Below, in pieces: positions 17,718 to 38,091 of a stretch of 64,000 nucleotides of DNA; the first letter of the stretch is position 1; each line of letters begins with the position of its first letter. A program made the position numbers and the translations under genes. Source of the DNA: Lentisphaerae bacterium RIFOXYC12_FULL_60_16 (GTDB lineage Bacteria; Verrucomicrobiota; Kiritimatiellia; UBA8416; YA12-FULL-60-10); the NCBI GenBank assembly GCA_001803315.1, contig MHBQ01000059.1, positions 17,188 through 81,187 of the forward strand, written 5' to 3'. A model generated the notes under the pieces. That model did no database searches, was not told the origin of the DNA, and worked only from the letters and a program-made list of their open reading frames with translations.

Positions 17718-17751
17718 CGTCGATCTCCTTTCGTGCGTGAAATTATCCGGC

Positions 17752-19487: not shown

Positions 19488-19519
19488 AATCGTATATCCC
19501 GGTTTGGCGCCCCCGCCCT

Positions 19520-21439: not shown

Positions 21440-22776
21440 GCTCCGGACCAGACCGTCTTCAGATAACGTGAGATCCCGCTGGCTTCGCGTGGGCCGACCA
21501 TGACCTCCCACCCCGACTCCTCCTGCAGCGCACCGCTCATGGCCGAAAGGTAGCCCGGGATGATGACCTTGCGGTGCTTGATCTGGCGTGTCACGTCCTC
21601 GGACTTGAGGAATGCCGCCACCTTTTCCGCGGTGAGCTTGTCGGAGGCGAACGCCGTCAGCACGGAGGTGCCTTCGGTGTCGATTACCCCGATGTAGGCC
21701 GGCACGCGGCTGGCCTCCACTTCCCCCTCGACCGTATAGAAGGTGAGCGAGAAATTGGTGGTGATCAGCAGGGGCGACTCCGGCGTGACCGCGCCCACCG
21801 GACAGAGCTTGGCTTCGACCTGGATCGGCTTGCGCGGGTCCGTATACAGGTTCTGGGACACCGTCAGAACGGGCAGCAGACACGCCGGTTCGCGCAGCGA
21901 CGTGATCACGAGTCCCGCGTATTTGGCCACGAACGCGCAACAGTCGGCGACGTTGACGAGCGGATCCTCCGCGCGGACAACCACCATGGCGGGATAACCG
22001 AGATCCCGCATCTTTTTCTTGAGGGCCAGCCGGCGGCTCGCGGTAAGCGCCTCGAGCGTGTCGAGCGTATGCGCCGCCGTAAGGTCGAGTACGATGTCCT
22101 CGACGCCCGCACCCCGCGCCATGGCGGCCAGGGCCGCCGCGCGTTCCAGATCGGGCGCCGCCACGGCCAGCGGACACTTCCGATCGCGGGCCACCCGCGC
22201 CATGGCCTCCCCGTTGGCGTCCGTGGCCGCGTGGATCAACGGCCGCGCCTCCGCGCACACCGCCACCGCCCGTTCGGCATGCGCCGCTTCCGCGGTCATC
22301 AGAACCATCGGCAGCCCGAGTTGCTTCACGACCGCCGCGGTCCGCTCGAACGGCTCCGCGGCGCCGCTGCGGTTCTCGATGGCCACCACGTTGGCTTTCA
22401 GCTCCATGCCCACGCGGGTGAAGCGGAGCCCGGCGATGGCGGCGCACGCCTCCGCGAGCGCCCGTTCGTCGAGCGTGTCCGGAAGCAGCACGCCGATTCC
22501 CGGCGCGTGATAGAACGCCTCATCATGTCGGAACAGGACGGTTTCGTTCCCGATTTCCAGTTTGTCGGGTCCCGCTCCGATGGCGACGAGACGAATCGGG
22601 GGAGCGGCGGCCCCGTCCAGCGCGGCCCGCGAGGCTTCGCTCACGTCCGGACATTGATCCAGCGTGGCTTGCTTCTGGGCCAGCTTCATGGCAAAGGCCA
22701 GACAGGTCGGGCAGCCGCATTTCTTGCAGTTGGTCTTGGGTAACAATTTGAATATATCGAGTGCTTTGAGTGCCAT
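21436..22776 (-). CDS. acsC: Corrinoid iron-sulfur protein large subunit (CFeSP gamma; 4Fe-4S, TIM barrel and B12-binding domains)
   Basis: The N-terminal motif CKKCGCPTC...C binds the 4Fe-4S cluster. The protein is 446 aa, with an RBS GGAGG. Confidence 0.9.
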   Translation of the reverse strand: MALKALDIFKLLPKTNCKKCGCPTCLAFAMKLAQKQATLDQCPDVSEASRAALDGAAAPPIRLVAIGAGPDKLEIGNETVLFRHDEAFYHAPGIGVLLPDTLDERALAEACAAIAGLRFTRVGMELKANVVAIENRSGAAEPFERTAAVVKQLGLPMVLMTAEAAHAERAVAVCAEARPLIHAATDANGEAMARVARDRKCPLAVAAPDLERAAALAAMARGAGVEDIVLDLTAAHTLDTLEALTASRRLALKKKMRDLGYPAMVVVRAEDPLVNVADCCAFVAKYAGLVITSLREPACLLPVLTVSQNLYTDPRKPIQVEAKLCPVGAVTPESPLLITTNFSLTFYTVEGEVEASRVPAYIGVIDTEGTSVLTAFASDKLTAEKVAAFLKSEDVTRQIKHRKVIIPGYLSAMSGALQEESGWEVMVGPREASGISRYLKTVWSGA

Positions 22777-22853: not shown

Positions 22854-25031
22854 TCATATCAGCGCCTCCATGTCAAGGGCGGGATGCTGCTTCCTGCCCA
22901 GAAACTCCAGCAGTTCCTCGGCGGTCGTGGCGTCCGATTCGTCGGCAATCCGGTCCAGCAGATCGGGAACCCCCTCTTCCCGCGCGCGGACGGCGAACCG
23001 GTCGCCGTAAAAGGTCTTCAGTTGCTTCGGCATCCACACCAGGCGCTTCAGTCCGCCGTCGGCGGAAATGAACTTGCGGCTGAGCGCGTACAACCGGCCG
23101 ACCCCCAGGAAACCCGGGGTTTGATTCCCGCCGCCGACCGACCCGGCCAGCGTCGAGAATTTCATGCCGCAGGGCGTCATGCCCGGAAACTCGCGGTTGA
23201 CGATCATGAACCCGTTGCACTCGGGCACCAGCGCCAGAATGCACTCGAAACAACCGCAGGACGTCATCGGGTCTTCCATGAGCGAGTACAGGCTGACCTT
23301 CTCGATGGAGCGGTTGGAACTCTGGTAGACGAAGTCGTTGACCTCCCGCCATTGGCCTTTGACGGGATCGAGCGTCTGGGTCTTCTTAATGGGCTGATTG
23401 CCGCCCGTAGGATCGATTTCGTAGCCCACCTTGCCATCCAGCCAGCTTACGGCGCCGCAGAGGCCCAGGCGCTCGGGACTGATGATGCAGATGTGGTTCG
23501 GCGCGAAGGACTGGCAAAGCGAGCACGAATAGAATGTGTCCACGCTTTCGTCGGTCATGCCGAGCAGGCGTTCGTCGCGCTGCGCATACGTTTTGCGGGC
23601 ATCCGCCAGCGCGGCCTCGACCCGTTGCGGATCGGTGATGATCGTCACCTGCACCTTGTCCACGATCTTGCTGTACAGGTTGTGAATCTGGGCATGCACG
23701 ATCGTGCCGAGATGCCTCAGCCGGAACCCGGCGGCATAGGCGTCCTTGCTGATGCGCAGCCAGACGATGTCACGCTGGCCCATGTGGAACACGCCCATCG
23801 CGTAATTCATGAAGTCGTGGATCTTGCGTTCGATGAGCGGCTCGAAATCGGTGTGCATGGCCCGTCCGGCGATCTCCACCCACACGGCCAGCGGCAAGGC
23901 CCCGCCCTCCGGCACGGTATCGACGTCCGGGCCGATCAGGTCGATCTTGCCGTCCTCCACTTCGTCCATTTCCCGCATGCGGACGAACTCGAAGGCGGTG
24001 GAGTACTTGCCGCCGAATTCCACGCGCGTGTCTTCGCGCCGCACCCGTTCGCCCTCGAACGCGGCCGAGAAGGAAACCGGGATGTCGATTTTAGCCACGG
24101 AAACCTTGACGCCGCGGACCTCGATACAGCGGGGCACGAGGTTCTCGTGGTTCAGTTCATGCACCACGTGTTCGTAGGTGCAGATCCCGGTGGGCAGAAT
24201 CTGTGGAATGTCCGTGTCCGCGATGACGGGGAAGCCCATGTCGATCGCGCCGGCGCCGGTCGCGTACTTCTGATCGTCGACGGTTCCCAGCGCCAGCCCG
24301 AACGCGAACACCCGGTTCTTGCAGTATTCCAGGCAAGCGCGCGGGTTGCCGGGCTTGATGCCGCCGAAGGTGAGCGCGCCGCGGATGGCCCAGTTCAACG
24401 GGTAGATGCCGCTGAGGGTGTCACGCCCGTAGGGCACGATGTAGGAATCCCAGCCCATCTGCACCTTTTCCTGGAGCAACTGGTCAATGATGCTCACGCC
24501 GCCGGTCGAGGATCCGACGAACACCATGATGCTGCGCTTCTGGAATTCACGGACGATTCGTACGGCCGTCTTGCTGTCCGGCGCGGCCCCGAGGATCGCG
24601 GCAAATCCCGGCATGCGCCCATCCACCAACTGGATGCCCAGCGTGCGCAGGATCGTATCCGAAAAGAACCCGTTGCAGTCCGCCTGCGGTTCCTGTTCGT
24701 AGAGGTACCGCAAGACCATGATCACCTCCTCGGAAAGCAGGGTGGCGATGCCGGCGTCGAGAGCCGTGCCGAGATAGGGGAACCACAAGGCGTCGCTGGG
24801 GGCGGGCCCCAGCAAATCCCGGGCATGGTCGAGAACGGGTTTCATCTGGCCGAGCGTCTCGATCTTGATCCCCATCAAGGCGTGCGCCATCGGCAGATAG
24901 TAGGCCGTATCCGGAAATCCGACGGCTGCCGCTTCGCCCTTCTCTTGCAGGGCCTTCTCGTAGAATGTCGCGGCCTGACCATATATTTCGTGCCCGCCTC
25001 GAATGGCGGCGGCGGCTATGATTTTTGACAT
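22854..25031 (-). CDS. acsB: Acetyl-CoA synthase (bacterial CODH/ACS beta subunit, A-cluster)
   Basis: 725 aa containing the A-cluster region CGCFEC and the motif CSLCQSFAPNHICI. An RBS GAGAGGAAC precedes ATG 25031. Confidence 0.9.
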   Translation of the reverse strand: MSKIIAAAAIRGGHEIYGQAATFYEKALQEKGEAAAVGFPDTAYYLPMAHALMGIKIETLGQMKPVLDHARDLLGPAPSDALWFPYLGTALDAGIATLLSEEVIMVLRYLYEQEPQADCNGFFSDTILRTLGIQLVDGRMPGFAAILGAAPDSKTAVRIVREFQKRSIMVFVGSSTGGVSIIDQLLQEKVQMGWDSYIVPYGRDTLSGIYPLNWAIRGALTFGGIKPGNPRACLEYCKNRVFAFGLALGTVDDQKYATGAGAIDMGFPVIADTDIPQILPTGICTYEHVVHELNHENLVPRCIEVRGVKVSVAKIDIPVSFSAAFEGERVRREDTRVEFGGKYSTAFEFVRMREMDEVEDGKIDLIGPDVDTVPEGGALPLAVWVEIAGRAMHTDFEPLIERKIHDFMNYAMGVFHMGQRDIVWLRISKDAYAAGFRLRHLGTIVHAQIHNLYSKIVDKVQVTIITDPQRVEAALADARKTYAQRDERLLGMTDESVDTFYSCSLCQSFAPNHICIISPERLGLCGAVSWLDGKVGYEIDPTGGNQPIKKTQTLDPVKGQWREVNDFVYQSSNRSIEKVSLYSLMEDPMTSCGCFECILALVPECNGFMIVNREFPGMTPCGMKFSTLAGSVGGGNQTPGFLGVGRLYALSRKFISADGGLKRLVWMPKQLKTFYGDRFAVRAREEGVPDLLDRIADESDATTAEELLEFLGRKQHPALDMEALI

Positions 25032-25843
25032 GACCCGGTTCCTCTCGTTTCGCATGCTGCGTTCGTCAACACACCCGTCTTCGCGCGCCGACCGGTCAAC
25101 GCCCGCCGGCAGTCGGGGCAAGTTTCCAACGTTTCCACCGGGACCGCCGTTCGGCCCCTGAGCCCGGCCAGTTGTTTCGCGGCCGCGAACGGCGCGCCGC
25201 ACGCCCGGCAGCGCGTCAAGGCAAGCGGGGTGCGCAATTCACGCATGAGCCGCACGCCGCCCGCGTCCTCGGCATGGAGCGCCCCGGTCGGACACACGTG
25301 CACGCAGGCCCGGCAGCCGATGCACCGTTCCGAAGCGACGCCCAGCGGACTGGCAATCGCGCGCCGGCCGCCGCGGTTGGCGTACCCGATGGCCGATTGG
25401 CCGATCGCCTCCTTGCAGACGCGCACGCACAAGCCGCACAGGATGCAGCGTTCGTTCCGCGCCTCACCCTCCGGCAACGCCTGGCGGGGATGCCAGGCGC
25501 CGTATTCCTTCGCCAACGCCGCGAGCTGCGCGACGCCCGGACAGCGGGCCAGCAGCAACTCCAGGATGATCCGGCGCGTCTGCCGCACGCGCGGGCTGTC
25601 GGTTTCGACCACGTCGCCCTCCGAGGGCTGGTAGACGCACGACACGACCAGCTTCGATCGCTTGCCCCACGCGACCTCCACCACGCACAGGCGGCACGCG
25701 CCGTAAGGCAGAATGGCCTTATGGTCGCAAAGGGTCGGAATCGCGACGCCGCAACGCCGGGCGACGCCCAGCAGGGTTTCCTCCGGCGCGGCCTCCGCGG
25801 CGCGGCCGTTGATCGTCAGCGATTTTTGTTTGGCTTCGTTCAT
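25016..25843 (-). CDS. 2Fe-2S plus 2x[4Fe-4S] iron-sulfur protein resembling the N-terminal module of NuoG/HydA
   Basis: 2Fe-2S motif CDHKAILPYGACRLCVV. Two 4Fe-4S motifs follow (CILCGLCVRVC, CIGCRACVHVC). 275 aa. Confidence 0.7.
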   Translation of the reverse strand: MNEAKQKSLTINGRAAEAAPEETLLGVARRCGVAIPTLCDHKAILPYGACRLCVVEVAWGKRSKLVVSCVYQPSEGDVVETDSPRVRQTRRIILELLLARCPGVAQLAALAKEYGAWHPRQALPEGEARNERCILCGLCVRVCKEAIGQSAIGYANRGGRRAIASPLGVASERCIGCRACVHVCPTGALHAEDAGGVRLMRELRTPLALTRCRACGAPFAAAKQLAGLRGRTAVPVETLETCPDCRRALTGRRAKTGVLTNAACETRGTGSCQKS

Positions 25844-25854
25844 CGGTGCGTTTC

Positions 25855-28188
25855 CTACGTCACTTCCACGGCGTTGAACTTGCATGCGTCCAGGCACGCG
25901 CCGCACTTGATGCAACCCGACGGGTCGATCACGTGCCGTTTCTTCCGCTCGCCGGAAATCACGTGCACGGGGCATTTCCGGGCGCAGGCGGCGCAACCGG
26001 TGCATGCCTCGGGCAGTATCCGGAAGGTGATCAGCGCCTTGCAAACCTTGGCCGGGCACCGGTGTTCCTCCACGTGCGCGCGATACTCCTCGGAAAAATG
26101 CCGGAGGGTGCTTAAGACCGGGTTGGGAGCCGAGCCGCCGAGGGCGCACAGCGAGCCGTCCACCGTGGTTTGGGCCAGTTCCCGCAACCGATCGATGGCG
26201 CCCGGCCCGGCGCGCCCCGCGCAGATATCGTTGAGGATGTCGAGCATGCGGCGGATGCCCTCGCGGCAGGGCACACACTTCCCGCAGGATTCCTCCTGCA
26301 GGAACGCCAGGAAATAACGGGCCACGTCCACCATGCAGGAGGTCTCGTCCATCACGATCAGCCCCCCCGACCCCATCATTGAGCCCGCCTGCGCGAGTTC
26401 GTCGAAGCCGATGGGCAGATCGAGCAGGGACTCCGGCAGACAGCCGCCGGACGGCCCGCCCGTCTGCACGGCCTTGAATGCCCTGCCGTCCGGTATGCCG
26501 CCGCCGATCGCGAAGATCAGTTCGCGCAACGGCATGCCCATCGGCACTTCCACCAGACCCGTGTTCACCACCTTGCCGACCAGCGAGAAAATCTTCGTCC
26601 CCTTCGAGGTGGCGGAACCGATGGACGCATACCAGTCGGCCCCGCGGGCGACGATCAAGGGGACGTTGGCCCACGTTTCGACGTTGTTCAGCGTGGTGGG
26701 CCGGTTCCACAGGCCGTTTTCGACGGTGTGGATGTATTTCGCGCGCGGCTCGCCGGGTTTTCCCTCCAGGGACGCCATCAGCGCGGTGGACTCGCCGCAC
26801 ACGAACGCCCCGCCGCCCCGCACCACCCGGATGTCGAAATCGAAACCCGAGCCGAGGATGTCACGGCCCAGGAATCCACGCTCCCGGGCCTGCTCCACGG
26901 CCACCTTGATATGTTTGACCGCCAGGGGATACTCGTCGCGGACATACACATAGCCCTCGCTGGCGCCGATGGCAAACGCCCCGATCGCCATGCCTTCGAT
27001 CACCCGGTGCGGATTGCCTTCCAGCAGGGCACGGTCCATGAATGCGCCCGGGTCGCCCTCGTCGGCATTGCAGACGACGTACTTGGGATGACCATGCGCC
27101 CGGCGGCAGGTGGCCCACTTGCGGCCGGTGGGGAACCCGCCGCCCCCGCGACCGCGCAGGCCCGATTGTTCAATCATCCCGATGATCTGGTCGGGCGGCA
27201 ACCTGAAAGCCTTGGCCAGCGCCTGGTACCCGCCGCATCGTTCCACGTAGTGGGCCAGGTTCGTGGGCGAAATGAAACCGTTGTCGCCCAGCAGGACCCG
27301 TTGCTGCTTCGCATAGAACGGGATATCCATCTCCTTGACGATCGCCTGGTTAGAGGCTGCGTCCCGGTACAGGAATGGCTCGACGATCCTTCCGCCGACG
27401 ACCGTTTCGCGCACGATGGCCGGAACAGCATCGACGGTGACTTTCTGGTAGAATATGTTCTCCGGGCGCACCATGACGAGGGGGCCGCGCTCGCAAAATC
27501 CGGGGCAACCGCACTGGACAAAATCAACCTTCGAACGAATGTTCAACCGGTCCAGTTCGTTCAGCACCGCCGTGGCCACGGCCTCGCAGCCGTATGCCTG
27601 GCAGCCCGTACCGCCACAAACCGCGATTCCGACTTCGGTCGTCATCAACCGCGTCACGTCGAGGGGCATATCCTCCGCCGCCGCTTTCGTGCCCGGCCCG
27701 TCAACCGGAACCGGCTCGCGGTCCACGTTATCCAGCAGGATTTTCACGGCGGCCGGCGATGTCTGGTGATAGCGGCCATCGACGACCACCACGGGACCCA
27801 GCGCGCAGCACCCAAGACAGTTCACGGTTTCGAGCGTGAAACGCCCGTCCGCGGTGGTCCCGCCCGGCTCCACATCCAGCAACCGGACGAGTTCGCCGAG
27901 AACCCGGGGCGCACCACGCACGTGACAGGCTGTGCCGGCACAGACTTTGACGATATGCCGGCCCCGCGGCTTGAGGCTGAACGCGGTGTAAAACGTGGCG
28001 ACGTGGTAAACCTCCGCGAGCGGCACATCGAGCCGCTCCGATGCCATCCGCAGCGAATCCCCGGGAAGATAACCGAGTTCCGCGTTCACGTCCTGGAGCA
28101 CACCGATCAGCGAGGAGCGCGCGGGCTCGTGCCGGCTCAACGCCTTGTCCAGGGCGGCTTCGATCTGGATGGTGGTGGGAAGACTCAT
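25855..28188 (-). CDS. NuoE-NuoF fusion flavoprotein (thioredoxin-like 2Fe-2S, then FMN/NAD(H) 51-kDa domain, then 2x[4Fe-4S] ferredoxin tail)
   Basis: The N-terminus has the NuoE 2Fe-2S motifs (CAGTACHVRG, CLGCCALGP). The NuoF core follows (GRGGGGFPTGRKW, ESCGKCVPCREG). The C-terminus has CTGCAACARKCP and CIKCGACLDAC. 777 aa. Confidence 0.85.
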   Translation of the reverse strand: MSLPTTIQIEAALDKALSRHEPARSSLIGVLQDVNAELGYLPGDSLRMASERLDVPLAEVYHVATFYTAFSLKPRGRHIVKVCAGTACHVRGAPRVLGELVRLLDVEPGGTTADGRFTLETVNCLGCCALGPVVVVDGRYHQTSPAAVKILLDNVDREPVPVDGPGTKAAAEDMPLDVTRLMTTEVGIAVCGGTGCQAYGCEAVATAVLNELDRLNIRSKVDFVQCGCPGFCERGPLVMVRPENIFYQKVTVDAVPAIVRETVVGGRIVEPFLYRDAASNQAIVKEMDIPFYAKQQRVLLGDNGFISPTNLAHYVERCGGYQALAKAFRLPPDQIIGMIEQSGLRGRGGGGFPTGRKWATCRRAHGHPKYVVCNADEGDPGAFMDRALLEGNPHRVIEGMAIGAFAIGASEGYVYVRDEYPLAVKHIKVAVEQARERGFLGRDILGSGFDFDIRVVRGGGAFVCGESTALMASLEGKPGEPRAKYIHTVENGLWNRPTTLNNVETWANVPLIVARGADWYASIGSATSKGTKIFSLVGKVVNTGLVEVPMGMPLRELIFAIGGGIPDGRAFKAVQTGGPSGGCLPESLLDLPIGFDELAQAGSMMGSGGLIVMDETSCMVDVARYFLAFLQEESCGKCVPCREGIRRMLDILNDICAGRAGPGAIDRLRELAQTTVDGSLCALGGSAPNPVLSTLRHFSEEYRAHVEEHRCPAKVCKALITFRILPEACTGCAACARKCPVHVISGERKKRHVIDPSGCIKCGACLDACKFNAVEVT

Positions 28189-28191
28189 GGA

Positions 28192-28707
28192 TCAGGTTCC
28201 GTCCGTGGCTCGCTCGATTTGCAGCAGATAGGCGCCTCGTTTTTCGCGCGCGACCTGGTCCAGGCTCTTGAACTCCAGGGCCCTGACGGGACACGCCTCC
28301 ACGCAAGCCGGCAGTTCACCGCGCTCGACCCGCTCGTAACACTGGTCGCACTTGATGATCGCCCGCGCATGCCGGTCCATCCGGATGACCCCGAACGGGC
28401 AGGCCAGCACGCAGGCATGGCAGCCGACGCATTGATCATGATCAATCAGCACGGGGAGTTCCGGATCGGTCCGGTGCAGCGCTTGCGTGGGACACACCGC
28501 CACGCACGGCGCATCCTCACATTGCCGGCATTGAAGCGGCACGGCGAACCCGTCGCCTTGCTCGACCGAGACGCGCGACGCCGGGGGCGGTGTCTCGTGA
28601 ATCGCCGATTCGAGTCGTTGGGACTTCGCGTGCTCCACGGCGCAAGCCAGTTCACACGTCTTGCAGCCCTGGCAGCGGTCCACCTTGACGACTATGGCGC
28701 CTTTCAT
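28192..28707 (-). CDS. cooF: CooF/HycB-like polyferredoxin (4x 4Fe-4S)
   Basis: Multiple CxxCxxCxxxCP motifs. The ATG at 28707 gives a 171-aa protein. The ORF overlaps the nuoEF start. Confidence 0.75.
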   Translation of the reverse strand: MKGAIVVKVDRCQGCKTCELACAVEHAKSQRLESAIHETPPPASRVSVEQGDGFAVPLQCRQCEDAPCVAVCPTQALHRTDPELPVLIDHDQCVGCHACVLACPFGVIRMDRHARAIIKCDQCYERVERGELPACVEACPVRALEFKSLDQVAREKRGAYLLQIERATDGT

Positions 28708-28762
28708 GATGGTTAAGCTCCCTCGCGTTCGTTCGACTGGCGGATGGTCGGGTGTTGGCCGT

Positions 28763-30802
28763 TCATGATCGTTTCCCCGCGCATCCCCGCGCCGGTTGCG
28801 CCGGGCCCGGATCGGGCCGTTCCGCGCGCGCGGCCGTTTCCGGGGCCGCCGTCGGGGCATCCTTCCCGTCTGTCAGAAACGACGCGGCGTACATCAATGG
28901 CCGCAACTTCAGGGCGGCCCGCTTTTTGTCCATGTGCGCCATCATCAGGTGGGCCGCCTTGATGGGATCGTCCTCGAAGTTGAACTTGCCCCCGACGATG
29001 GCCTCGATATCCTCCGTCAGAAACCGGGTCAGCACCGGGCTGCCGAGCACCCGCATGGCCGGGCTGTAGTTCACGTAGGCGCCGGAGGCGACGCAGTAGA
29101 ACCCGATCGCGATGGCCTTTTCGCACATGGCCTCGGGCGCCGCGCCCGCGATGGGCAGGTCGGAAAGTTTGTCCCCCAGGCCGCCCTCCTTGATCATCTC
29201 GCACAAGGCGACGAGGATGCGGCTGTTGTCCACGCACGAGCCCAGGTGCAGCACCGGCGGGATGCCGACCGCCTCGCAGATTTCACGCAGGCCGGCGCCC
29301 GCCCATTTTTCAGCCGCTTCGGGCTGAAGCAACCCGGCCTTGGCGCAGGCGGTGGCGGCGCAACCGGTCATGACGACGAGCACGTCGTTGGCCAGGAGTT
29401 CCTTGACCATTTTCAAGTGGCTGTCGTCCTGCGTCTTTTTCACCGTGTTGCAGCCGATGACGGCCGCCACGCCGCGCAGGCGTCCCGAAATGATGCCGTC
29501 ATTGAGCGGCCGGAATGTCGAGCGGTATCGCCCGCCAAGGTGCTGGAACGTGTTCTGCACCGTGAAACCGGCCACCAAATCCGTCTTTCCAGCCGGAATG
29601 TCGACCACGCGGCGATTGGGAAAATTCTCGATCGCCGTCCGCACGATCCGACGGGCGATGTCATAGGCCTGCGCCTCGTCGAACGGGATGTGTTCAGCGC
29701 CCGGAATGCGGGCCTTCTTGCTGGTGGTGATGACCTTGGTGTGGAACTTCTCCGCGTGCTCGACCAGGGCCGGCATGATGCACTGTACGTCCACGAGCAT
29801 CACATCCACCGCGCCCGTGGCCAGCGCCAGCTCCTGGTGCAGGAAATTCCCGACCACCGGCGCGCCCTGGCGCATGAGGATTTCGTTGGCGGTGCAGCAG
29901 ATGCCGCCGACCAGAATCCCCTTGGCGCCCTTGGACGCGGCGAGGTCCAGCAGTTCCTTGTCCCGGCTGGCGGCCACGACCATCTCGGACAGCGTCGGTT
30001 CGTGACCATGGACCACGATGTTGACTTCGTCGGCCTTCAGGACGCCGAGATTCACCTGGCTGCGTACCGGCTTGGGCGAGCCGAAGAGAATGTCGCCGAA
30101 ATCGGTCGCCAGCATCGCCCCGGCCCACCCATCGCCCATGGATGTCCGCAGGCCGTGCATGATGAGGTTCACATAATCGGCATCCACGCCCTCGTGCGTG
30201 CGGTGCAGGGTTTCCACGATCTCGTGTTCGACGCCGACGGGCAGGATGCCCCGCTCGCGCCAGTTCTTGACCGTGGCTTCGGGGGCGCGCAGGGCGGGGT
30301 AACGGATCTCGCCCTCCTGGTTGTTGAATTCCCGGAGCGCCGCATCGGCCATCTCGATCGCCACGTCCGCAATTTCCCGGCCCTCCGTTTTGACGCCCCA
30401 TTCCTTCGCCAGATCCAGGAGGCGCTGGGGGTCCTTAATCGAGTATCCCTGCGCTTTGCCCTGGGCCGCGAGCCGCAGGGTTTTGACCACGTCGTGGCCG
30501 TGGTCCGAGTGGGCGGCGACGCCGGCGGCCACCTGGCGGATCAGGTGCCGCGCGGCGATCGTCTCCGCCGTGGCGCCGCAAACGCCGCGCCGCGGACCTT
30601 CGCCCGGAAACGGATTGATCCGGCAAGGCCCCATGTCGCAGATCCGGCAGCACAGGCCCAGATTGCCGAAACCGCATCGCGGTTCCTGATCGGCATGGCG
30701 GCTGTAGGCGGTCTCCATGCCGGCATCCTGGGCCTTCTTCAGGACTTCCCGCGCAACCGGATCGGCGCTCTGTTTTTCCATCGACTCACTCGTTGTCGTC
30801 AT
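28763..30802 (-). CDS. cooS: Ni,Fe carbon monoxide dehydrogenase catalytic subunit
   Basis: The N-terminal cluster motifs are CGFGNLGLCCRICDMGPCRI. The conserved C-cluster region is present (GICCTANE, HLGSCVDNSR). ATG 30802 follows GAGGGAAG. Confidence 0.9.
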   Translation of the reverse strand: MTTTSESMEKQSADPVAREVLKKAQDAGMETAYSRHADQEPRCGFGNLGLCCRICDMGPCRINPFPGEGPRRGVCGATAETIAARHLIRQVAAGVAAHSDHGHDVVKTLRLAAQGKAQGYSIKDPQRLLDLAKEWGVKTEGREIADVAIEMADAALREFNNQEGEIRYPALRAPEATVKNWRERGILPVGVEHEIVETLHRTHEGVDADYVNLIMHGLRTSMGDGWAGAMLATDFGDILFGSPKPVRSQVNLGVLKADEVNIVVHGHEPTLSEMVVAASRDKELLDLAASKGAKGILVGGICCTANEILMRQGAPVVGNFLHQELALATGAVDVMLVDVQCIMPALVEHAEKFHTKVITTSKKARIPGAEHIPFDEAQAYDIARRIVRTAIENFPNRRVVDIPAGKTDLVAGFTVQNTFQHLGGRYRSTFRPLNDGIISGRLRGVAAVIGCNTVKKTQDDSHLKMVKELLANDVLVVMTGCAATACAKAGLLQPEAAEKWAGAGLREICEAVGIPPVLHLGSCVDNSRILVALCEMIKEGGLGDKLSDLPIAGAAPEAMCEKAIAIGFYCVASGAYVNYSPAMRVLGSPVLTRFLTEDIEAIVGGKFNFEDDPIKAAHLMMAHMDKKRAALKLRPLMYAASFLTDGKDAPTAAPETAARAERPDPGPAQPARGCAGKRS

Positions 30803-30804: not shown

Positions 30805-31623
30805 TCACTCTCGCTTCCCTCGTATGTCGTCCGGTCCGTCGGAACCGCTTTTCCCCTTCGGGGTATTTTCCAGAACATCCACCAGGGTTTCGACCGCCCG
30901 TTCCATCTCCGTGCTGGAGCCCCACGCCGACCGGCCAGCGGCTTCCGCCGCGCGGATCCGATCGTCAAACGGGAGCAATCCCAAGAAATCCAGGCCGGGC
31001 AGCGCCTCCTTCAGGTAGTCCGCGTCCTGTCCGGAACGAACCTTGTTTCCCACCACGCCGATTTGCCGCAGCCCGATGTCGAACGCCATGGTTTGGATCC
31101 GCAACGCGGTTTCCACGCTGCGCCGGCCGGGTTCCACCACCATCAGCAGACGATCGACGCTGCCGAGCGTGCCCCGGCTCAGATGCTCGATGCCGGCCTC
31201 CATGTCGAGTACCAGGGCCGTCTCCGCATCCATGAACAGATGCGAGATGAGCGCCCGTAACAGGGTGTTTTCCGGGCAGTAGCAACCCGACCCGCCCTTC
31301 TTGACCGCCCCGACGACCAGGAGCTTGATGCCCCCCACATCCACGGCGTAACGCTCCGGGATATCGGCGACGAACGGATTGAGTCGAAACATGCCGCCGG
31401 TCGTGCCGGGACTGACCCCGGTTCGTTCCTCGATGAGTTCGCGCCATTCGATCAGGGGGCGCACGGTTTCGGGATGCGGATGACCCAGGCACGCGGCGAG
31501 GTTGGAATCGGGGTCCGCGTCAATGGCGATTACCTTCCGTCCGCGCGCGGCCAGTGTCCGCGCCAGCAACGCGCTCACGGTGGTCTTGCCGACACCGCCT
31601 TTTCCCGTCACGGCGAGTTTCAT
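30805..31623 (-). CDS. cooC: CODH nickel-insertion accessory ATPase
   Basis: Deviant Walker A GKGGVGKTT, a CYC motif, 272 aa. Confidence 0.85.
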   Translation of the reverse strand: MKLAVTGKGGVGKTTVSALLARTLAARGRKVIAIDADPDSNLAACLGHPHPETVRPLIEWRELIEERTGVSPGTTGGMFRLNPFVADIPERYAVDVGGIKLLVVGAVKKGGSGCYCPENTLLRALISHLFMDAETALVLDMEAGIEHLSRGTLGSVDRLLMVVEPGRRSVETALRIQTMAFDIGLRQIGVVGNKVRSGQDADYLKEALPGLDFLGLLPFDDRIRAAEAAGRSAWGSSTEMERAVETLVDVLENTPKGKSGSDGPDDIRGKRE

Positions 31624-33200
31624 GCGGTGGGTCCTTTCGGTTCCGTCCCCAGGGCCGGAGTCGTCGCGCCGGCGCCATGGTCCCGCCCGAGATAATAGTT
31701 CGCCCACGCGGAGGTGTACTGCAGTTCCGTCTTGCGGGGAGGCGTATAGCGGCCCCTCAGTTCGTCCAACCGGCCGACGTGCTTCAGACGGTCGTACACG
31801 ATCGTCCAGACGCACCGGCGATCGTCGGGAAACACTTCGCACATCCCGTCGCGGCTTCCCCCGCACGGACCGTTGCGCTGTTGCTTGGCGCACTTTCCCT
31901 GGGGACAGCAGTAGGCCATGTCCGGCAGCGCGCAATCGCCGCAGTCCCGGCAGTCGAAGGTCAGGAACTTGAGAAGATACTCGGCGAAATGGGACGCCCG
32001 CGCCATGATCGAGCGTTCGCCGATTGCCCGGTAGTACCGCGTCATCAGCCGGCAACCGAGCCCGCGTCGATCGAACACCGCCCGGTGCATCCCCCGCGCG
32101 AAGGTGTACTTCAGCGAGCGTCTTCCCCTGCCGAACGAAGGAACGGGATCGGCATCCGGCGGCGCCGGACGATACGATGGCGGAGGCGGAAAGGCATAGA
32201 ATTCGCCGTCCCGGCTGAAGGATACTTCCGGAACAAATTCCTCCCAGTGCGGCGCGATCGCCGCGGCGCGTTCGACGATGAACCGGAAATCCTGCGTCTT
32301 GAGGGCAAACCCGCCGATATGCACCCCCTGGAACCCCATTCCCCGGAACATGGCCACCATCCTGGCGGCGCGTTCCAGGCGTTTCCCCTTGCCCTTGTCC
32401 GGATCCCGGGACTCGGCTTCGAGCACGCGCAGCAGATCGTCCGTGACCACGCATCCGGGCACCAGTCCCGCATGCATCGTCTTGGCCGCGCCCAGGCTCA
32501 ACACGTACACGTTGCCGATGATCGGGACGCGGAGTCCGCGGCTATCCACATAACGCTTCACTTCGAGAAACTTCCGCATATCGTAGCCAAGCTGGGTAAT
32601 CACGAAGTCCGCGCCGGCCGCAATCTTTTTTTCCAACTTGAAAAACTGCGGCATCAGTTCCTGCTCCGAGCGCTTGAAGGGTGAAACCGCGGCACCCACG
32701 AAACAATCGGTGGACGGAAGCCGGATGGTGGTTCCCTTCTTCGCCCCGGGCACCTCGAGGCCGGCATTCATGGCCTTCACGTACTTGATGGCCTGAACGG
32801 CATCGAGGTCGAATACGCCGGCCGCGTTTCCTTCGAATCCGCCGGAGGTGTAGTCGCCCGTGACGACCAGGAGATTGTTGACCCCCGCCCTGGACAGCGC
32901 CATCACCCGCGACTCCACGGCATTACGATTCAGATCCCGGCAGGAAAAGTGCACGATCGCTTCCAACCCGCAGGCCTGGATTGCCGGCGCAAGCGCATCG
33001 GGCATGATGGCGGGATTCCCGCCCGGGTTGTCGGTCAGGCTGACGGCGTGAATGCGCGGCCCCGACGTTCCCACCTCGCGGGCAAAGCCGAGCGCGGCAT
33101 CCACGCTCGCTCCCTCCTTGCCGCGGCCCGGAACGAATTCGCAGGTGATGACAAATTCGTCGTGTTTAAGCGCATCCCGAAACATGTTGTTTGTCTCCAC
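31620..33200 (-). CDS. metF: Methylenetetrahydrofolate reductase fused to a C-terminal MetV-like zinc-ribbon domain
   Basis: The N-terminal ~300 aa form the MTHFR TIM barrel. The C-terminal Cys-rich region is CRDCGDCALPDMAYCCPQGKCAKQQRNGPCGG (MTHFR_C/MetV-like). Confidence 0.8.
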   Translation of the reverse strand: METNNMFRDALKHDEFVITCEFVPGRGKEGASVDAALGFAREVGTSGPRIHAVSLTDNPGGNPAIMPDALAPAIQACGLEAIVHFSCRDLNRNAVESRVMALSRAGVNNLLVVTGDYTSGGFEGNAAGVFDLDAVQAIKYVKAMNAGLEVPGAKKGTTIRLPSTDCFVGAAVSPFKRSEQELMPQFFKLEKKIAAGADFVITQLGYDMRKFLEVKRYVDSRGLRVPIIGNVYVLSLGAAKTMHAGLVPGCVVTDDLLRVLEAESRDPDKGKGKRLERAARMVAMFRGMGFQGVHIGGFALKTQDFRFIVERAAAIAPHWEEFVPEVSFSRDGEFYAFPPPPSYRPAPPDADPVPSFGRGRRSLKYTFARGMHRAVFDRRGLGCRLMTRYYRAIGERSIMARASHFAEYLLKFLTFDCRDCGDCALPDMAYCCPQGKCAKQQRNGPCGGSRDGMCEVFPDDRRCVWTIVYDRLKHVGRLDELRGRYTPPRKTELQYTSAWANYYLGRDHGAGATTPALGTEPKGPTA

Positions 33201-33344
33201 GTGCGATTTCCTCGATCGGGACGGGCCGGAACGATTCCTGAATCCACAGGATTTGGTTGTAATCCAACGGCTCGACCGGTTCGCTCCCGGTCTTGGGCCC
33301 CTGCGCTTCCTCGGTTTTTATCCCTTGTTCGCGTCTACTTTGCT
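33166..33344 (-). CDS. Small acidic hypothetical protein (59 aa) overlapping the metF start
   Basis: A consensus RBS GGAAGGAGGG lies 7 nt before ATG 33344. The ORF is in a different frame from metF. It sits between fhs and metF. Confidence 0.3.
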
Positions 33345-33470
33345 TACTCATGGGCGCCCTCCTTCCGGCGTGAACCGGAACGGTTCGTTTTATCGGCATT
33401 TCCGCTCGTTCATCGAATGCGCGTCTTCCGTGTTCTCCCGATCGACCGCGGCGGCGCCCCGGGCGCCCCG

Positions 33471-35288
33471 TCAATACAGGCCTTTCACCTCGCCGGTTTC
33501 GACGTCCACGTCAATGTTGCGAAACGCCGGATTCGAAGCCGTGCCGGGCATGAGCTTGATGGCGCCCGCCACGGGCACCAGAAAGCCGGCGCCCCGGTAA
33601 ATCAGGATATCGCTGATCGGCAGCGTCCACCCCGTTGGACGGCCCTTCAACTCCGGGTCGTGCGAAAGGCTCAAGTGGGTCTTGACCATGCACGTTCCCA
33701 GATTCCACGTCGTGGAGTCCTGCTCGTATTGTTTCAGTTTCTCCAGCGCCGTGTCGGAATAGACGACGCCCGCGGCGCCATAAACATCCTTCGCGATTCG
33801 CGCAATGCGCTCCCGCAGCGGCGTATCCAATTCGTACAGATGCCGAAACCGGCTCGGCTTCCCGCAGGCGGCCACCACGGCTTCGGCCAGTTCCACGGCG
33901 CCATCCCCCCCCTTGAGCCAATGCTTCGACAGGGCGCACAGGGCGCCGTTCCGTTCCGCCACGGTCCGGACCAGGCGGATCTCTTCCGCCGTGTCCGTGT
34001 GGAAATGATTGATGCATACAACGGGGGTGATTCCGCTTTTCTTCACCGTTTCGATGTGCGCAATCAGGTTCTGGCACCCCGCCTCCACCAAGGCGCAATT
34101 TTCCTTGGTATAGGCCTCATCCAACGCCAGGCCGGGTCGGACACGGGGACCGCCCCCGTGCATTTTGAGCGCGCGGATCGTCGCCACAATCACCACGGCA
34201 TTGGGCGTGAGCCCCGAGGCGCGGCATTTCAGGTTCCAGAATTTTTCGAAGCCGATGTCCGCGCCGAATCCGCTTTCGGTCACCAGGTAGTCGCCCAGCC
34301 GAATGCCCAGTTCGTCGGCAATGACGGAACTCTGCCCGATCGCGATGTTGGCGAACGGCCCGGCATGGACGAAAACCGGTTGCCCCTCGATCGTCTGGAG
34401 AAGGCTGGGATTCAGCGCCTTGACCATCCAGGCGGTCATGGCGCCGTCCACTTCCAGATCCTGCGTGGTGACCTCGCGTCCCGACCGGTCGTAGGCCACC
34501 ACGATGCGCGCGATCCGCTGCCGCAAGTCGCGAAGATCCTTGGCGACGGCCAGGATGGCCATGACTTCGCTGGAAACCGTGATCTGGAAGCCGGAATCCA
34601 TTTCGAATCCGTCCATCTTCCCGCCTTTGCCGATCGTGATGTTCCGCAAAGCCTGCGCGCAGAAATCCATCACCCACTTCATCTGGACGCGCGCGGGATC
34701 GATGTCGAGCCGCCGCATGTTGGTGCCGGCCAACCGCGCATCGTCATAATTCGCTTCATGCTGCATGCGCGCGGTCAGGGCCACCATGGCGAGATTGTGG
34801 GCGTTGGCGATGGCGTCGATATCGCCCGTCAGACCGAGCGAGAAATCCGTGAGCGGCAGGCACTGCGCCAATCCTCCTCCCGCAGCCGAGCCCTTGACGT
34901 TGAACGTTGGCCCGCCGCTGGGTTGACGGATCGCTCCCACCACCTTTTTCCCGATCTTTCCCAATCCCTGCACCAGGCCCATCGTCGTGGTGGTTTTCCC
35001 CTCGCCCAACGGTGTCGGGGTGATCGCAGTCACATCGATGTATTTTCCCATGGGCGCTCCACGCAGGCGCGACGACGCCTTGGTGAAGTTCACCTTGCCC
35101 ACGTACCGGCCCAGGGGAATCATTTCCTCATCAAGCAACCCCAATTCATCCGCCAGGGTCACGAACGGCTTCATATGGGCTTCCGCGGCCTTGGCAATCT
35201 GCCAGTCCTTCATATGCAAGGGATCGAGCACGCGGTTCCGGGCGCCAGGCGCGGTTTTGCAATCCGTCGGAGCAATCTCAACAGGCAT
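33471..35288 (-). CDS. fhs: Formate-tetrahydrofolate ligase
   Basis: The N-terminus is Fhs-like ([17 protein letters not shown]...) with the P-loop EGKTTTT and high conservation throughout. The start is 35288 (RBS GGAAAGGAAAG) or 35213. Confidence 0.9.
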
Positions 35289-35395
35289 GGGCTTTCCTTT
35301 CCATTCCATTTCCGCGGCCGGAAACCTTCCCTACCGTTATGCCGCAGGATGATGCTGGACGACTTACCATGGATTCTGCTACTGTCTTCGGAGTG

Positions 35396-38090: not shown

Positions 38091-38091
38091 T

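What the first reader, a model, noticed from the sequence alone, without database searches (positions are those of the whole stretch)
25016..30802. CODH catalytic subunit wired to a NuoE-NuoF flavoprotein module inside the acs cluster
Four genes sit between cooS and acsB. They are cooS, a CooF-like polyferredoxin, a fused NuoE-NuoF NAD(H)-binding flavoprotein with a ferredoxin tail, and a NuoG-N-terminus-like 2Fe-2S/4Fe-4S protein. This is the subunit set of HydABC-type electron-bifurcating modules. Here CODH takes the place of the hydrogenase or FDH catalytic unit. The arrangement suggests a CO:NAD(P)+ (possibly ferredoxin-confurcating) oxidoreductase partnered with ACS.
Basis: inference. Interest (0 to 1): 0.55.

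Follow-up and report, generated by a model that had tools for sequence, protein, structure and literature searches.

The report
CO dehydrogenase wired to bifurcating flavoprotein
Inside the operon for the carbon-fixing enzyme CODH/acetyl-CoA synthase, this uncultured bacterium carries a complete NADH- and ferredoxin-linked "electron-bifurcating" module, so CO/CO2 conversion probably exchanges electrons with both NAD(H) and ferredoxin; this enzyme type has been predicted in print but never purified.

Summary
On the minus strand lie cooS (28763-30802), a CooF-type 4x[4Fe-4S] protein (28192-28707), a fused NuoE-NuoF flavoprotein (25855-28188) and a short NuoG-N-terminus-like protein (25016-25843). 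They sit between cooC and acsB in a tightly packed Wood-Ljungdahl operon.

The flavoprotein carries every cofactor ligand that defines the bifurcating BfuBC core. All three accessory proteins find their best solved-structure match in one complex, the bifurcating tungsten aldehyde oxidoreductase WorABCSL (PDB 9mqx).

The gene set recurs with CODH/ACS genes in 31 fetched loci from several phyla, in at least three gene orders. In Bathyarchaeia the homologous flavoprotein is fused to the CODH/ACS epsilon subunit.

The most likely function is a "Codh-Bfu" enzyme: 2 CO + NAD+ + 2 Fd(ox) <-> 2 CO2 + NADH + 2 Fd(red), attached to the CODH that serves ACS.

The general idea is already published (Schut 2022; Feng 2025) as an unpurified prediction for stand-alone Firmicute clusters. 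What I did not find in the searched literature is the ACS-embedded, fused, non-Firmicute form and its breadth.

No biochemistry exists, and the physiological direction is unknown. Interest is moderate.

The parts
28763..30802 (-). cooS: Ni,Fe-CODH catalytic subunit, the only cooS in the window and the likely partner of ACS
   Evidence: TIGR01702 at 662 bits and Prismane at 549 bits. D-cluster Cx7C at C43/C51 and B-cluster at C52/C55/C60/C75. Best PDB hits are CODHs, including the CODH components of two CODH/ACS complexes (6ytt, 9fzy), E 1e-181. No second cooS in the window.
28192..28707 (-). cooF: 4x[4Fe-4S] wire protein, a WorS homologue
   Evidence: Fer4_11. 16 Cys in four motifs. Best PDB hit is 9mqx_E (WorS), E 1e-26, aligned residues 2-160 against 2-145.
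25855..28188 (-). bfuCB: fused NuoE (BfuC) and HydB-type NuoF (BfuB); the NAD(H)/FMN site, the ferredoxin site and the presumed bifurcation centre
   Evidence: Pfam domains. Ligands: C1 at C83/88/124/128; B5 at C191/196/228/232; B1 at C635/638/641/681; B2/Zn site at C618/C656/H705/C711/C716; B3/B4 from eight Cys at 729-769; FMN/NADH loops GRGGGGF and DEGDPGAF. Best PDB hits are 9mqx_B (1e-227) and 7t2r_B (3e-221).
25016..25843 (-). bfuA: short WorA-type connector with a [2Fe-2S] A1, [4Fe-4S] A2 and A4, no His-ligated A3, a zinc finger and a C-terminal helix
   Evidence: Best PDB sequence hit is 9mqx_A, 1e-39, full length. Cys motifs are invariant in 40 homologues. AF2 model pLDDT 80.6; top fold hit 9mqx_A, E 8e-21; predicted helix at 243-262.
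22854..25031 (-). acsB: acetyl-CoA synthase with the N-terminal CODH-docking domain
   Evidence: NF040764 at 1018 bits; CODH_A_N, CdhC and ACS_CODH_B_C. Overlaps bfuA by 16 bp.
30805..31623 (-). cooC: Ni-insertion ATPase for CODH
   Evidence: CbiA/ParA P-loop. Conserved upstream of cooS in L078, L081-L083, L087, L093 and L102.
16911..22776 (-). Rest of the acs operon: acsC (21436-22776), RACo (19520-21439), cooC2 (18714-19523), acsD (17752-18717), acsE (16911-17717)
   Evidence: Pfam CdhD/FeS, RACo domains, CbiA and Pterin_bind. Gaps of -4 to 77 bp.
31620..35309 (-). Upstream operon members: metF-metV fusion (31620-33200) and fhs (33471-35309)
   Evidence: MTHFR plus DUF5981. The fhs assignment rests on the translation only; it was not run against Pfam. 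metFV overlaps cooC by 4 bp. The only minus-strand promoter-like site is at 35424-35396, and there is no minus-strand terminator-like site between 35400 and 16816 (weak evidence).

Best explanation
The four genes most likely encode a CODH-type member of the BfuABC electron-bifurcating family ('Codh-Bfu'), built into the CODH/ACS operon.

Inferred electron path, by analogy with the WorABCSL structure:
1. CO is oxidised at the C-cluster of CooS.
2. Electrons leave through the B- and D-clusters into the four [4Fe-4S] clusters of CooF.
3. They enter the short connector BfuA at cluster A4 and pass through A2 and A1.
4. They reach the FMN / B1 / B5 / C1 centre of the fused BfuCB flavoprotein.
5. There, four mid-potential electrons are divided. 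One hydride goes to NAD(P)+. Two low-potential electrons go through the C-terminal B3/B4 clusters to ferredoxin.

Net reaction: 2 CO + 2 H2O + NAD+ + 2 Fd(ox) <-> 2 CO2 + NADH + 2 Fd(red) + 3 H+, fully reversible.

This CooS is the only CODH in the operon, and AcsB carries its CODH-docking domain. The same CODH probably also serves ACS. Carbonyl-group synthesis, or acetyl-CoA cleavage in the reverse direction, would then be coupled to both the NAD(H) and the ferredoxin pools.

Shown here: gene content, cofactor ligands, homology to WorA/B/C/S, and conserved, phylogenetically coherent linkage to cooS/acsB.
Inferred: the physical complex, the electron path, the stoichiometry, bifurcation itself, the nucleotide specificity and the in vivo direction.
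For: - Complete BfuBC cofactor set, including the His/Cys B2 site and the B3-B5 clusters. Schut et al. report that characterised non-bifurcating homologues lack B2-B5.
- Best solved-structure relatives of BfuCB are nine BfuB subunits of BfuABC-family enzymes, E 1e-227 to 4e-180. NAD-dependent formate dehydrogenase beta subunits and complex I NuoF/Nqo1 score about 1e-115 and weaker.
- BfuA, BfuCB and CooF each have their top PDB hit in the same complex, 9mqx WorABCSL. The AF2 model of BfuA matches WorA best and has a C-terminal helix like the one that recruits WorS.
- Operon structure: gaps of -16 to 77 bp from metFV to acsE, and no minus-strand terminator-like site inside.
- Synteny: the identical order cooS-cooF-bfuCB-bfuA-acsB occurs in 10 fetched loci. 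bfuA is followed directly by acsB in 10 more, and by cooS (then acsB where the contig continues) in 8 more.
- Phylogeny: in an NJ tree of the NuoF core, the window sits in a six-leaf clade that is entirely CODH/ACS-linked. Nearest informative neighbours share context in 20 of 23 CODH/ACS cases and 43 of 50 other cases.
- Sister modules are attached to other catalytic units, NiFe hydrogenase and 2-oxoacid:ferredoxin oxidoreductase. This fits a modular 'plug'.
- Rosetta-stone evidence: in Bathyarchaeia a BfuB homologue is fused to CdhB, the CODH/ACS epsilon subunit, inside a cdh cluster. The fusion is found in at least 27 protein-cluster representatives.
- The same enzyme type was proposed independently in the literature.
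Against: - No biochemical or expression data exist for this or any Codh-Bfu.
- CO2/CO (E0' -520 mV) lies below both ferredoxin and NAD. Bifurcation is therefore not thermodynamically required at standard conditions. It makes sense only at very low CO, as Schut et al. themselves note.
- In some loci cooS is not next to the module. L086 has it about 9 kb away at the far end of the acs cluster. L068 and L073 place the module after acsC.
- One locus, L120, has cooF-bfuA-cooS-acsB without any NuoEF. So CooF and BfuA can evidently work without the flavoprotein.
- The tree is a quick NJ tree on tblastn segments.
Confidence: 0.6

Rival explanations
1. A plain, non-bifurcating CO:NAD(P)+ oxidoreductase. 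Electrons from CooS pass through CooF and BfuA to FMN and reduce NAD(P)+ only. The extra clusters are relics or storage sites.
For: CO is a strong enough reductant to reduce NAD+ directly (potentials). CODH-CooF-FNOR clusters with an NAD(P)-linked flavoprotein are known as a concept.
Against: The protein keeps all B2-B5 and C1 ligands. Several are invariant across 15 relatives. These are the features Schut et al. report as absent from characterised non-bifurcating homologues. Its nearest structural relatives are all BfuABC-family enzymes.
Confidence: 0.12
2. The CooF-BfuCB-BfuA module is not attached to CooS. It serves another operon member, for example as the NADH/ferredoxin input for the MetF-MetV methylene-THF reductase, for reductive activation of the corrinoid protein or ACS. 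Alternatively it acts alone as an NADH:ferredoxin oxidoreductase.
For: metFV is in the same operon and overlaps cooC by 4 bp. In 10 loci acsB, not cooS, follows bfuA directly. In L086 cooS is distant, and in L068/L073 the module follows acsC.
Against: metFV adjacency is not conserved: no MTHFR hit appears in any CODH/ACS-linked locus. cooS flanks the module on one side or the other in 19 loci. CooF is the classical CODH partner and the WorS homologue. The Bathyarchaeial fusion ties BfuB to a CODH subunit, CdhB.
Confidence: 0.15
3. The NuoEF/BfuA genes belong to a hydrogenase or formate dehydrogenase encoded elsewhere and sit in the acs operon only for co-regulation.
For: Most relatives at 44-61% identity in the genome scan are followed by other catalytic genes rather than CODH/ACS genes. 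An FdhA with a NuoG-like N-terminus lies in the window at 2011-4746.
Against: That FdhA has its own BfuB-like/GltD-like partner immediately upstream. The NiFe-linked sister module checked (L008) has a 586-aa BfuA, and structurally characterised NiFe-Bfu feeds electrons in through cluster A3. This short BfuA lacks A3. Linkage to cooF, cooS and acsB is conserved across lineages.
Confidence: 0.08
4. Chance juxtaposition or assembly artefact.
For: None found.
Against: The same order occurs in independent assemblies from NCBI, ENA and JGI at 57-79% identity. Genes overlap or are separated by 77 bp or less.
Confidence: 0.01

Closest known systems
WorABCSL, the bifurcating tungsten aldehyde oxidoreductase of Acetomicrobium mobile (PDB 9mqx; Feng et al. 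2025, PMC12318220)
   Same: BfuCB, BfuA and CooF each have their best solved-structure match in WorB/C, WorA and WorS. The short BfuA has A1, A2 and A4 but no A3, a zinc finger and a C-terminal helix. A 4x[4Fe-4S] subunit links the catalytic unit to the core.
   Different: The catalytic unit is a Ni,Fe-CODH rather than a tungstopterin WorL. BfuC and BfuB are one polypeptide here. The genes lie inside an acs operon. The B2-site residue aligned to C476 of NiFe-HydB is Cys (C656) in this window and Thr in six of the 15 aligned relatives. WorB is reported to hold Zn at this site.
Predicted 'Codh-Bfu' / 'CodhABCSF' (Schut et al. 2022, PMC9304861; Feng et al. 2025, PMC12318220)
   Same: The same concept and subunit set: BfuABC plus CooS plus a CooF-type protein. 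It is predicted to couple CO oxidation to NAD+ and ferredoxin reduction.
   Different: The published cases are four sequences, all Firmicutes, with the CODH genes between bfuB and bfuA. They are discussed as CO-oxidising or detoxifying enzymes, with no mention of ACS or the Wood-Ljungdahl pathway. Here the module sits between cooS and acsB, BfuCB is fused, the host is a Lentisphaerae/Kiritimatiellota-like MAG, and relatives span several phyla.
HydABC / NiFe-HydABCSL bifurcating hydrogenases (PDB 7p5h, 8a6t, 7q4v, 7t2r)
   Same: The BfuBC core is homologous, E 1e-180 to 1e-221. All five B2-site ligands of A. mobile NiFe-HydB align to identical residues.
   Different: There is no hydrogenase domain or subunit. 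BfuA is much shorter and lacks A3, A5 and the H-cluster domain.
Bacterial CODH/ACS (Moorella AcsA/AcsB; C. autoethanogenum and C. hydrogenoformans complexes)
   Same: cooS, acsB with the N-terminal docking domain, acsC/D/E, RACo and cooC are all present.
   Different: I recall the electron partner of model CODH/ACS being free ferredoxin (from memory, not checked here). This operon inserts a CooF wire and an NAD(H)-linked flavoprotein between cooS and acsB. Inoue et al. 2019 noted NuoE/F/G-like COGs in the Wood-Ljungdahl group of their CODH genomic-context network but did not interpret them.
CODH-CooF-FNOR clusters (Clostridium, Geobacter)
   Same: A CooS and a CooF are coupled to an NAD(P)-binding flavoprotein.
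   Different: FNOR is a COG1251 FAD/NAD(P) oxidoreductase. Here the flavoprotein is an FMN NuoF/HydB type with six Fe-S sites, and no Pyr_redox domain is found in these four genes.

Membership tests
BfuABC electron-bifurcating family (Schut et al. 2022) | BfuB with a NuoF-type FMN/NAD(H) site and the B1 [4Fe-4S] cluster | tested here: met
   Complex1_51K and NADH_4Fe-4S domains. GRGGGGF, DEGDPGAF and GESTA loops; C635/638/641/681.
BfuABC electron-bifurcating family (Schut et al. 2022) | B2 site: conserved His plus Cys ligands spanning the B1 motif, reported absent from non-bifurcating homologues | tested here: met
   C438/C476/H525/C531/C536 of 7t2r_B align to C618/C656/H705/C711/C716. His and three Cys are invariant in 15 relatives; position 656 is Cys or Thr.
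BfuABC electron-bifurcating family (Schut et al. 2022) | B3 and B4: C-terminal 2x[4Fe-4S] ferredoxin domain (the ferredoxin site) | tested here: met
   Fer4 domains at 722-775. Eight invariant Cys at 729-769.
BfuABC electron-bifurcating family (Schut et al. 2022) | B5: N-terminal thioredoxin-like [2Fe-2S] domain in BfuB | tested here: met
   Second 2Fe-2S_thioredx stretch, and NF041612 at 199-270. C191/196/228/232.
BfuABC electron-bifurcating family (Schut et al. 2022) | BfuC (NuoE-like) with the C1 [2Fe-2S] cluster | tested here: met
   2Fe-2S_thioredx at 14-154; C83/88/124/128. Present as the N-terminal domain of the same polypeptide.
BfuABC electron-bifurcating family (Schut et al. 2022) | BfuA with the A1 [2Fe-2S] and A2 (plus A4) [4Fe-4S] clusters feeding the core | tested here: met
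   Fer2_4 plus two CxxCxxCxxxC motifs. Full-length match to WorA, 1e-39, and top fold hit.
BfuABC electron-bifurcating family (Schut et al. 2022) | Tightly coupled three-substrate activity: NAD(H), ferredoxin and a third substrate | not testable with these tools
   Needs purified enzyme. No Codh-Bfu has been purified.
Codh-Bfu / CodhABCSF (predicted subtype) | CooS and a CooF/WorS-type polyferredoxin encoded together with BfuABC | tested here: met
   cooS-cooF-bfuCB-bfuA are contiguous with gaps of 55 bp or less. CooF's best PDB hit is WorS.
Codh-Bfu / CodhABCSF (predicted subtype) | Physical CooS-CooF-BfuA complex with a continuous cluster chain | not testable with these tools
   Only single-chain prediction is available. 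Indirect support comes from conserved synteny and the BfuB-CdhB fusion in Bathyarchaeia.
Codh-Bfu / CodhABCSF (predicted subtype) | Published layout and range: CODH genes between bfuB and bfuA; Firmicutes only | tested here: not met
   Here cooS-cooF precede bfuCB-bfuA. The host is a Lentisphaerae-labelled MAG, and relatives are labelled Armatimonadota, Nitrospiraceae and Clostridia, among others.
Bacterial bifunctional CODH/ACS operon | AcsB with the N-terminal CODH-docking domain, plus acsC/D/E, RACo, cooC and one CooS | tested here: met
   Only one cooS in the 64-kb window.
Non-bifurcating NuoEFG/HoxFU-type diaphorase | NuoF homologue lacking the B2-B5 sites; NuoG/HoxU with a His-ligated [4Fe-4S] | tested here: not met
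   B2-B5 are present. The His-ligated cluster motif is absent from BfuA. NuoF NCBIfam scores are below their cutoffs.
CODH-CooF-FNOR | COG1251 FAD/NAD(P) oxidoreductase (FNOR) next to cooS-cooF | tested here: not met
   No Pyr_redox domain in the four genes.

The most novel reading that the evidence does not exclude
The Bfu module is an integral part of a CODH/ACS supercomplex, (CooS)2-(AcsB)2-CooF-BfuA-BfuCB. In many uncultured Wood-Ljungdahl organisms, and in fused form in Bathyarchaeia, the carbonyl branch would then not be purely ferredoxin-dependent. CO2 reduction to the ACS-bound CO would draw half of its electrons from NADH by confurcation. This is feasible because the tunnel and ACS keep CO very low. 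By my estimate the enzyme would be at equilibrium near CO:CO2 of about 4e-5, against about 0.2 with ferredoxin alone. In the oxidative direction, acetyl-CoA cleavage would yield NADH plus reduced ferredoxin. Either way, the ferredoxin and ATP bookkeeping of the pathway would change for these lineages.
Probability: 0.35. Interest if true: 0.75.

Novelty: new variant of a known kind. Interest (0 to 1): 0.5.

Why it matters
In model acetogens, as I recall from the literature (not checked here), the CODH step of the Wood-Ljungdahl pathway is booked as costing or yielding two reduced ferredoxins. That figure fixes the calculated ATP gain of organisms living close to the thermodynamic limit.

If a sizeable set of uncultured lineages couples this step to NAD(H) as well, their energy budgets and the direction in which they can run the pathway need recalculating. 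Contexts were verified here for Lentisphaerae/Kiritimatiellota-like, Armatimonadota, Nitrospiraceae, Clostridia, Desulfobacterales, Dehalococcoidales and Bathyarchaeia loci.

The locus would also give the Bfu field a third substrate at the very low end of the potential scale. The logic of bifurcation is least obvious there, so such an enzyme would test current mechanistic models.

Tried and rejected
- **Genome scan with the NuoEF alignment.** Only L078 reproduced the full arrangement, so it could not give an unbiased frequency.
- **First metagenome scan with the single BfuA protein.** It found nothing because the patterns were too specific.
- **MetFV as the partner of the module.** Rejected as the main reading because MTHFR is not found near the module in any related CODH/ACS-linked locus.
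- **FDH in the window as the partner.** Rejected because it has its own BfuB-like/GltD-like gene directly upstream.
- **CODH-FNOR type.** Rejected because no Pyr_redox flavoprotein is present.
- **Literature searches.** Searches for an ACS-embedded Bfu, for 'bifurcating CODH' and for a CdhB-NuoF fusion found three kinds of prior mention: the two Adams/Li-lab predictions, a COG-level note in Inoue 2019, and a passing remark in a MAG paper (Suzuki 2018). The 2026 eLife CODH genomic-context paper does not mention NADH, NuoE/F, HydABC, Bfu or bifurcation.
- **Promoter/terminator scan.** The counts do not exceed those from shuffled sequence, so I use it only as a weak statement that no obvious terminator interrupts the operon.
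- **Not attempted.** NAD versus NADP specificity and a CODH clade assignment.

Full report
**1. What is there**

The window has about 65% G+C and many spurious ORFs. I fixed gene calls from translations, start-codon context and codon-position G+C.

The minus strand carries one continuous block: fhs (33471-35309), a metF-metV fusion (31620-33200), cooC (30805-31623), cooS (28763-30802), cooF (28192-28707), a fused NuoE-NuoF gene (25855-28188), a short NuoG-N-terminus-like gene (25016-25843), acsB (22854-25031), acsC (21436-22776), RACo (19520-21439), a second cooC (18714-19523), acsD (17752-18717) and acsE (16911-17717). The assignments come from Pfam and NCBIfam; fhs rests on its translation only.

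From metFV to acsE the intergenic gaps run from -16 to +77 bp. The simple scan finds no minus-strand terminator-like site inside the block. The only minus-strand promoter-like site lies upstream of fhs (weak evidence, since the counts do not exceed shuffles).

There are two small corrections. Three genes, not four, lie between cooS and acsB. The 'NuoG-like' protein lacks the His-ligated cluster of NuoG/HoxU.

**2. The flavoprotein is of the bifurcating (BfuBC) type**

The 777-aa protein reads as follows:
- a NuoE domain (14-154; C83/88/124/128);
- a linker;
- a thioredoxin-like [2Fe-2S] domain (C191/196/228/232);
- the NuoF FMN/NADH domain (loops GRGGGGF, DEGDPGAF, GESTA);
- SLBB;
- the N3-type cluster (C635/638/641/681);
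- a C-terminal 2x[4Fe-4S] ferredoxin domain (eight Cys, 729-769).

Schut et al. 2022 define the Bfu family by exactly this BfuBC core, six Fe-S sites plus FMN. They state that characterised non-bifurcating homologues lack B2-B5.

The unusual B2 site of the A. mobile NiFe enzyme (C438, C476, H525, C531, C536) aligns to C618, C656, H705, C711 and C716. The His and three of the Cys are invariant in 15 relatives. Position 656 is Cys in the window and its closest relatives and Thr in some others, the same dichotomy Schut et al. describe.

Against all PDB sequences, the nine best hits are BfuB subunits of BfuABC-family enzymes: WorB 1e-227, NiFe-HydB 3e-221, A. woodii and T. kivui HydB, NfnB, Stn, and T. 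maritima HydB 4e-180. NAD-dependent formate dehydrogenase beta subunits and complex I NuoF/Nqo1 score about 1e-115 and weaker.

**3. The connector and the wire match WorA and WorS**

The 275-aa protein aligns over its full length with WorA (9mqx_A, 1e-39). Its features are:
- an A1 [2Fe-2S];
- two CxxCxxCxxxC motifs (A2, A4);
- loss of the His-ligated A3 motif;
- a C-terminal CxxC...CxxC motif, which in WorA is a zinc finger.

These cysteines are invariant in 40 homologues.

An AlphaFold2 model (mean pLDDT 80.6) finds WorA as its top structural match (E 8e-21; TM 0.47/0.51, moderate, as may be expected for a cofactor-free multi-domain model). The model predicts a C-terminal helix at residues 243-262. 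In WorA a C-terminal helix recruits WorS.

CooF has 16 Cys in four motifs. Its best PDB hit is WorS (9mqx_E, 1e-26, nearly full length).

All three accessory proteins therefore point to the same solved complex, in which a 4x[4Fe-4S] subunit wires a catalytic subunit into a bifurcating core.

CooS has a complete D-cluster (Cx7C) and B-cluster motif. It is about equally close to stand-alone CODHs and to the CODH components of two CODH/ACS complexes, 6ytt and 9fzy. AcsB has the N-terminal domain that, in the Moorella enzyme as I recall it, docks onto CODH. No other cooS lies in the window.

**4. Is the linkage real?**

The flavoprotein is 100% identical to a protein of 'Lentisphaerae bacterium RIFOXYA12_FULL_60_10'. 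Its nearest named relative is a Kiritimatiellota MAG.

Relatives at 79, 68, 65 and 64% identity have the identical order cooS-cooF-bfuCB-bfuA-acsB-acsC-RACo-cooC-acsD-acsE, with cooC directly upstream of cooS in three of them and divergently oriented in the fourth. Two of these are labelled Armatimonadota and Nitrospiraceae; the other two are unnamed. A Clostridia MAG at 57% has the window's order.

A 53% relative keeps cooF-bfuCB-bfuA-acsB but has cooS at the far end of the cluster. A 57% relative sits with a glutamate-synthase-like gene instead.

A metagenome scan seeded with BfuA relatives added many more loci. Across all fetched loci with a CODH/ACS neighbour:
- 10 have the window's order;
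- 10 have bfuA followed directly by acsB (most are truncated upstream);
- 8 have bfuA followed directly by cooS, then acsB where the contig continues.

So the module keeps its association through at least three gene orders.

In a quick NJ tree of the NuoF core (132 sequences), the window falls in a six-leaf clade that is entirely CODH/ACS-linked. That clade sits inside an 18-leaf clade with 13 linked, 3 otherwise linked and 2 truncated loci. Nearest informative neighbours share context in 20 of 23 linked and 43 of 50 unlinked cases.

The differently linked sisters carry a NiFe hydrogenase with a long BfuA (L008) or a 2-oxoacid:ferredoxin oxidoreductase (L026, L158). This fits the published picture of the BfuBC core as a plug for different catalytic units.

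The strongest independent evidence is a gene fusion. In a Bathyarchaeia cdh cluster (L039) the BfuB homologue is fused at its C-terminus to CdhB, the epsilon subunit of archaeal CODH/ACS, and the BfuA-like protein is fused to an FrhB C-terminal domain. The BfuB-CdhB fusion recurs in at least 27 protein-cluster representatives at 65-100% identity. I found no paper describing it.

**5. Mechanism**

By analogy with WorABCSL and the hydrogenases, I infer this path: C-cluster -> B -> D (CooS) -> four clusters of CooF -> A4 -> A2 -> A1 (BfuA) -> FMN/B1/B5/C1. NAD(P)+ takes a hydride, and two low-potential electrons leave through B3/B4 to ferredoxin.

The net reaction would be 2 CO + 2 H2O + NAD+ + 2 Fd(ox) <-> 2 CO2 + NADH + 2 Fd(red) + 3 H+.

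With the potentials tabulated by Schut et al. (CO2/CO -520 mV; physiological NAD -280 mV; ferredoxin about -500 mV), my own estimate is as follows. The coupled reaction balances at a mean acceptor potential of about -390 mV. That corresponds to a CO:CO2 ratio near 4e-5, against about 0.2 for ferredoxin alone.

Bifurcation therefore makes sense only when CO is scarce, either as an external trace gas or as the tunnel-confined intermediate of ACS. In the reductive direction it would halve the ferredoxin cost of the carbonyl group. In the oxidative direction it would deliver NADH plus reduced ferredoxin from acetyl-CoA cleavage.

The window does not say which direction this organism uses. It also encodes an FDH with its own BfuB-like/GltD-like partner, Moco and menaquinone biosynthesis genes, and an ATP synthase with Na+-type c subunits.

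**6. Rivals**

- A plain CO:NAD(P)+ oxidoreductase is disfavoured by the fully conserved B2-B5/C1 sites.
- A module serving MetFV, the corrinoid protein or ACS activation is not excluded. Some loci lack an adjacent cooS, and L120 has cooF-bfuA-cooS-acsB with no flavoprotein at all. However, MetFV adjacency is not conserved. CooF is a CODH partner, and the archaeal fusion ties BfuB to a CODH subunit.
- Ownership by a distant hydrogenase or FDH is unlikely, for the reasons in section 4.
- Chance is excluded by conservation.

**7. Relation to what is known, and novelty**

Schut et al. 2022 listed 'Codh-Bfu' as four sequences, Firmicutes only, with the CODH genes between bfuB and bfuA. They called it uncharacterised and did not mention ACS or the Wood-Ljungdahl pathway.

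Feng et al. 2025 predicted a 'CodhABCSF' in Sporomusa silvacetica, configured like WorABCSL, and noted that it has never been purified.

Inoue et al. 2019 recorded NuoE/F/G-like COGs in the Wood-Ljungdahl group of their CODH genomic-context network. One MAG paper remarks that a nuoEF set lies near CODH/ACS.

No paper in the held library describes a purified or assayed enzyme.

The concept is therefore known, and this locus passes every sequence-testable membership criterion of the Bfu family. It differs from the published Codh-Bfu cases in four ways: its position inside the acs operon, the BfuC-BfuB fusion, its host phylum, and its apparent breadth among uncultured lineages. I classify it as a new variant of a known kind, with moderate interest.

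**8. Limits**

All functional statements are inferences from sequence, structure prediction and synteny. The tree is a rough NJ tree. Nucleotide specificity and stoichiometry are unknown.

Noticed in passing
L039:5104-15897 (Bathyarchaeia MAG contig CAYGJP010000013.1): Archaeal cdh cluster in which a BfuB-type NuoF (814 aa) is fused C-terminally to CdhB, the CODH/ACS epsilon subunit (PF02552). The BfuA-like protein is fused to an FrhB_FdhB C-terminal domain. The BfuB-CdhB fusion recurs in at least 27 protein-cluster representatives, and I found no paper on it.
   Followed up: partly
window 14116-15186 (-): The F-type ATP synthase operon directly downstream of acsE encodes two c subunits. One is a normal 90-aa hairpin with an ESTxxY (Na+-type) motif. 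The other is 247 aa with three hairpin repeats, of which only the third keeps the acidic ESTxxY site. This recalls, from memory, the mixed c ring of Acetobacterium woodii.
   Followed up: partly
window 1-6285 (+): A second BfuB-like gene, cut by the window edge, is 55% identical to residues 527-743 of the acs-embedded one and is fused to a GltD-like Pyr_redox domain. It is followed by an FdhA with a NuoG-like N-terminus and by an FdhD-CooT fusion protein. This is probably an NAD(P)H-linked, possibly Bfu-type, formate dehydrogenase.
   Followed up: partly
window 37939-38102 (+): Moco (molybdenum/tungsten cofactor) riboswitch, 60 bits against a gathering score of 36. It lies ahead of a moeA-moaA-MOT1 transporter-moaC-MOSC/MoCF operon.
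   Followed up: partly
L120:1817-8624 (metagenome contig Ga0315279_10007062): A variant acs cluster with cooC-cooF-(ACT-domain protein)-bfuA-cooS-acsB and no NuoEF gene. The CooF/BfuA wire evidently occurs without the flavoprotein.
   Followed up: partly
L085:10001-14585 (GCA_020723485.1): A 57%-identical fused BfuCB is followed by a 207-aa BfuA-like protein and a Glu_synthase (GltB-like) gene, next to nitrogen-regulation genes. This looks like a different third-substrate module.
   Followed up: no
window 31620-33200 (-): MetF and the MetV-like domain (DUF5981) are fused in one 526-aa protein whose stop overlaps the cooC start by 4 bp.
   Followed up: no
window 25541-25543 (-), BfuA residue C101: A single Cys (LLLARCP) is invariant in the six closest BfuA homologues, exactly where the lost His-ligated A3 cluster motif would be. 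It is absent from WorA, which reads LLLNRAP there.
   Followed up: no
window 6534-7181 (+); L083:21618-22325; L084:21881-22466: A DUF3786 protein recurs next to acs clusters. In two related loci it lies at or near the acsE end of the cluster, and in the window it lies beyond the ATP synthase operon. Its function is unknown.
   Followed up: no
window 44447-45307 and 50603-52801 (+): Menaquinone biosynthesis genes: VitK2_biosynth, and a double radical-SAM protein with a CofH/MqnC-type C-terminal region. From memory these are the futalosine route. A quinone-based respiratory option may therefore exist in a Wood-Ljungdahl organism.
   Followed up: no
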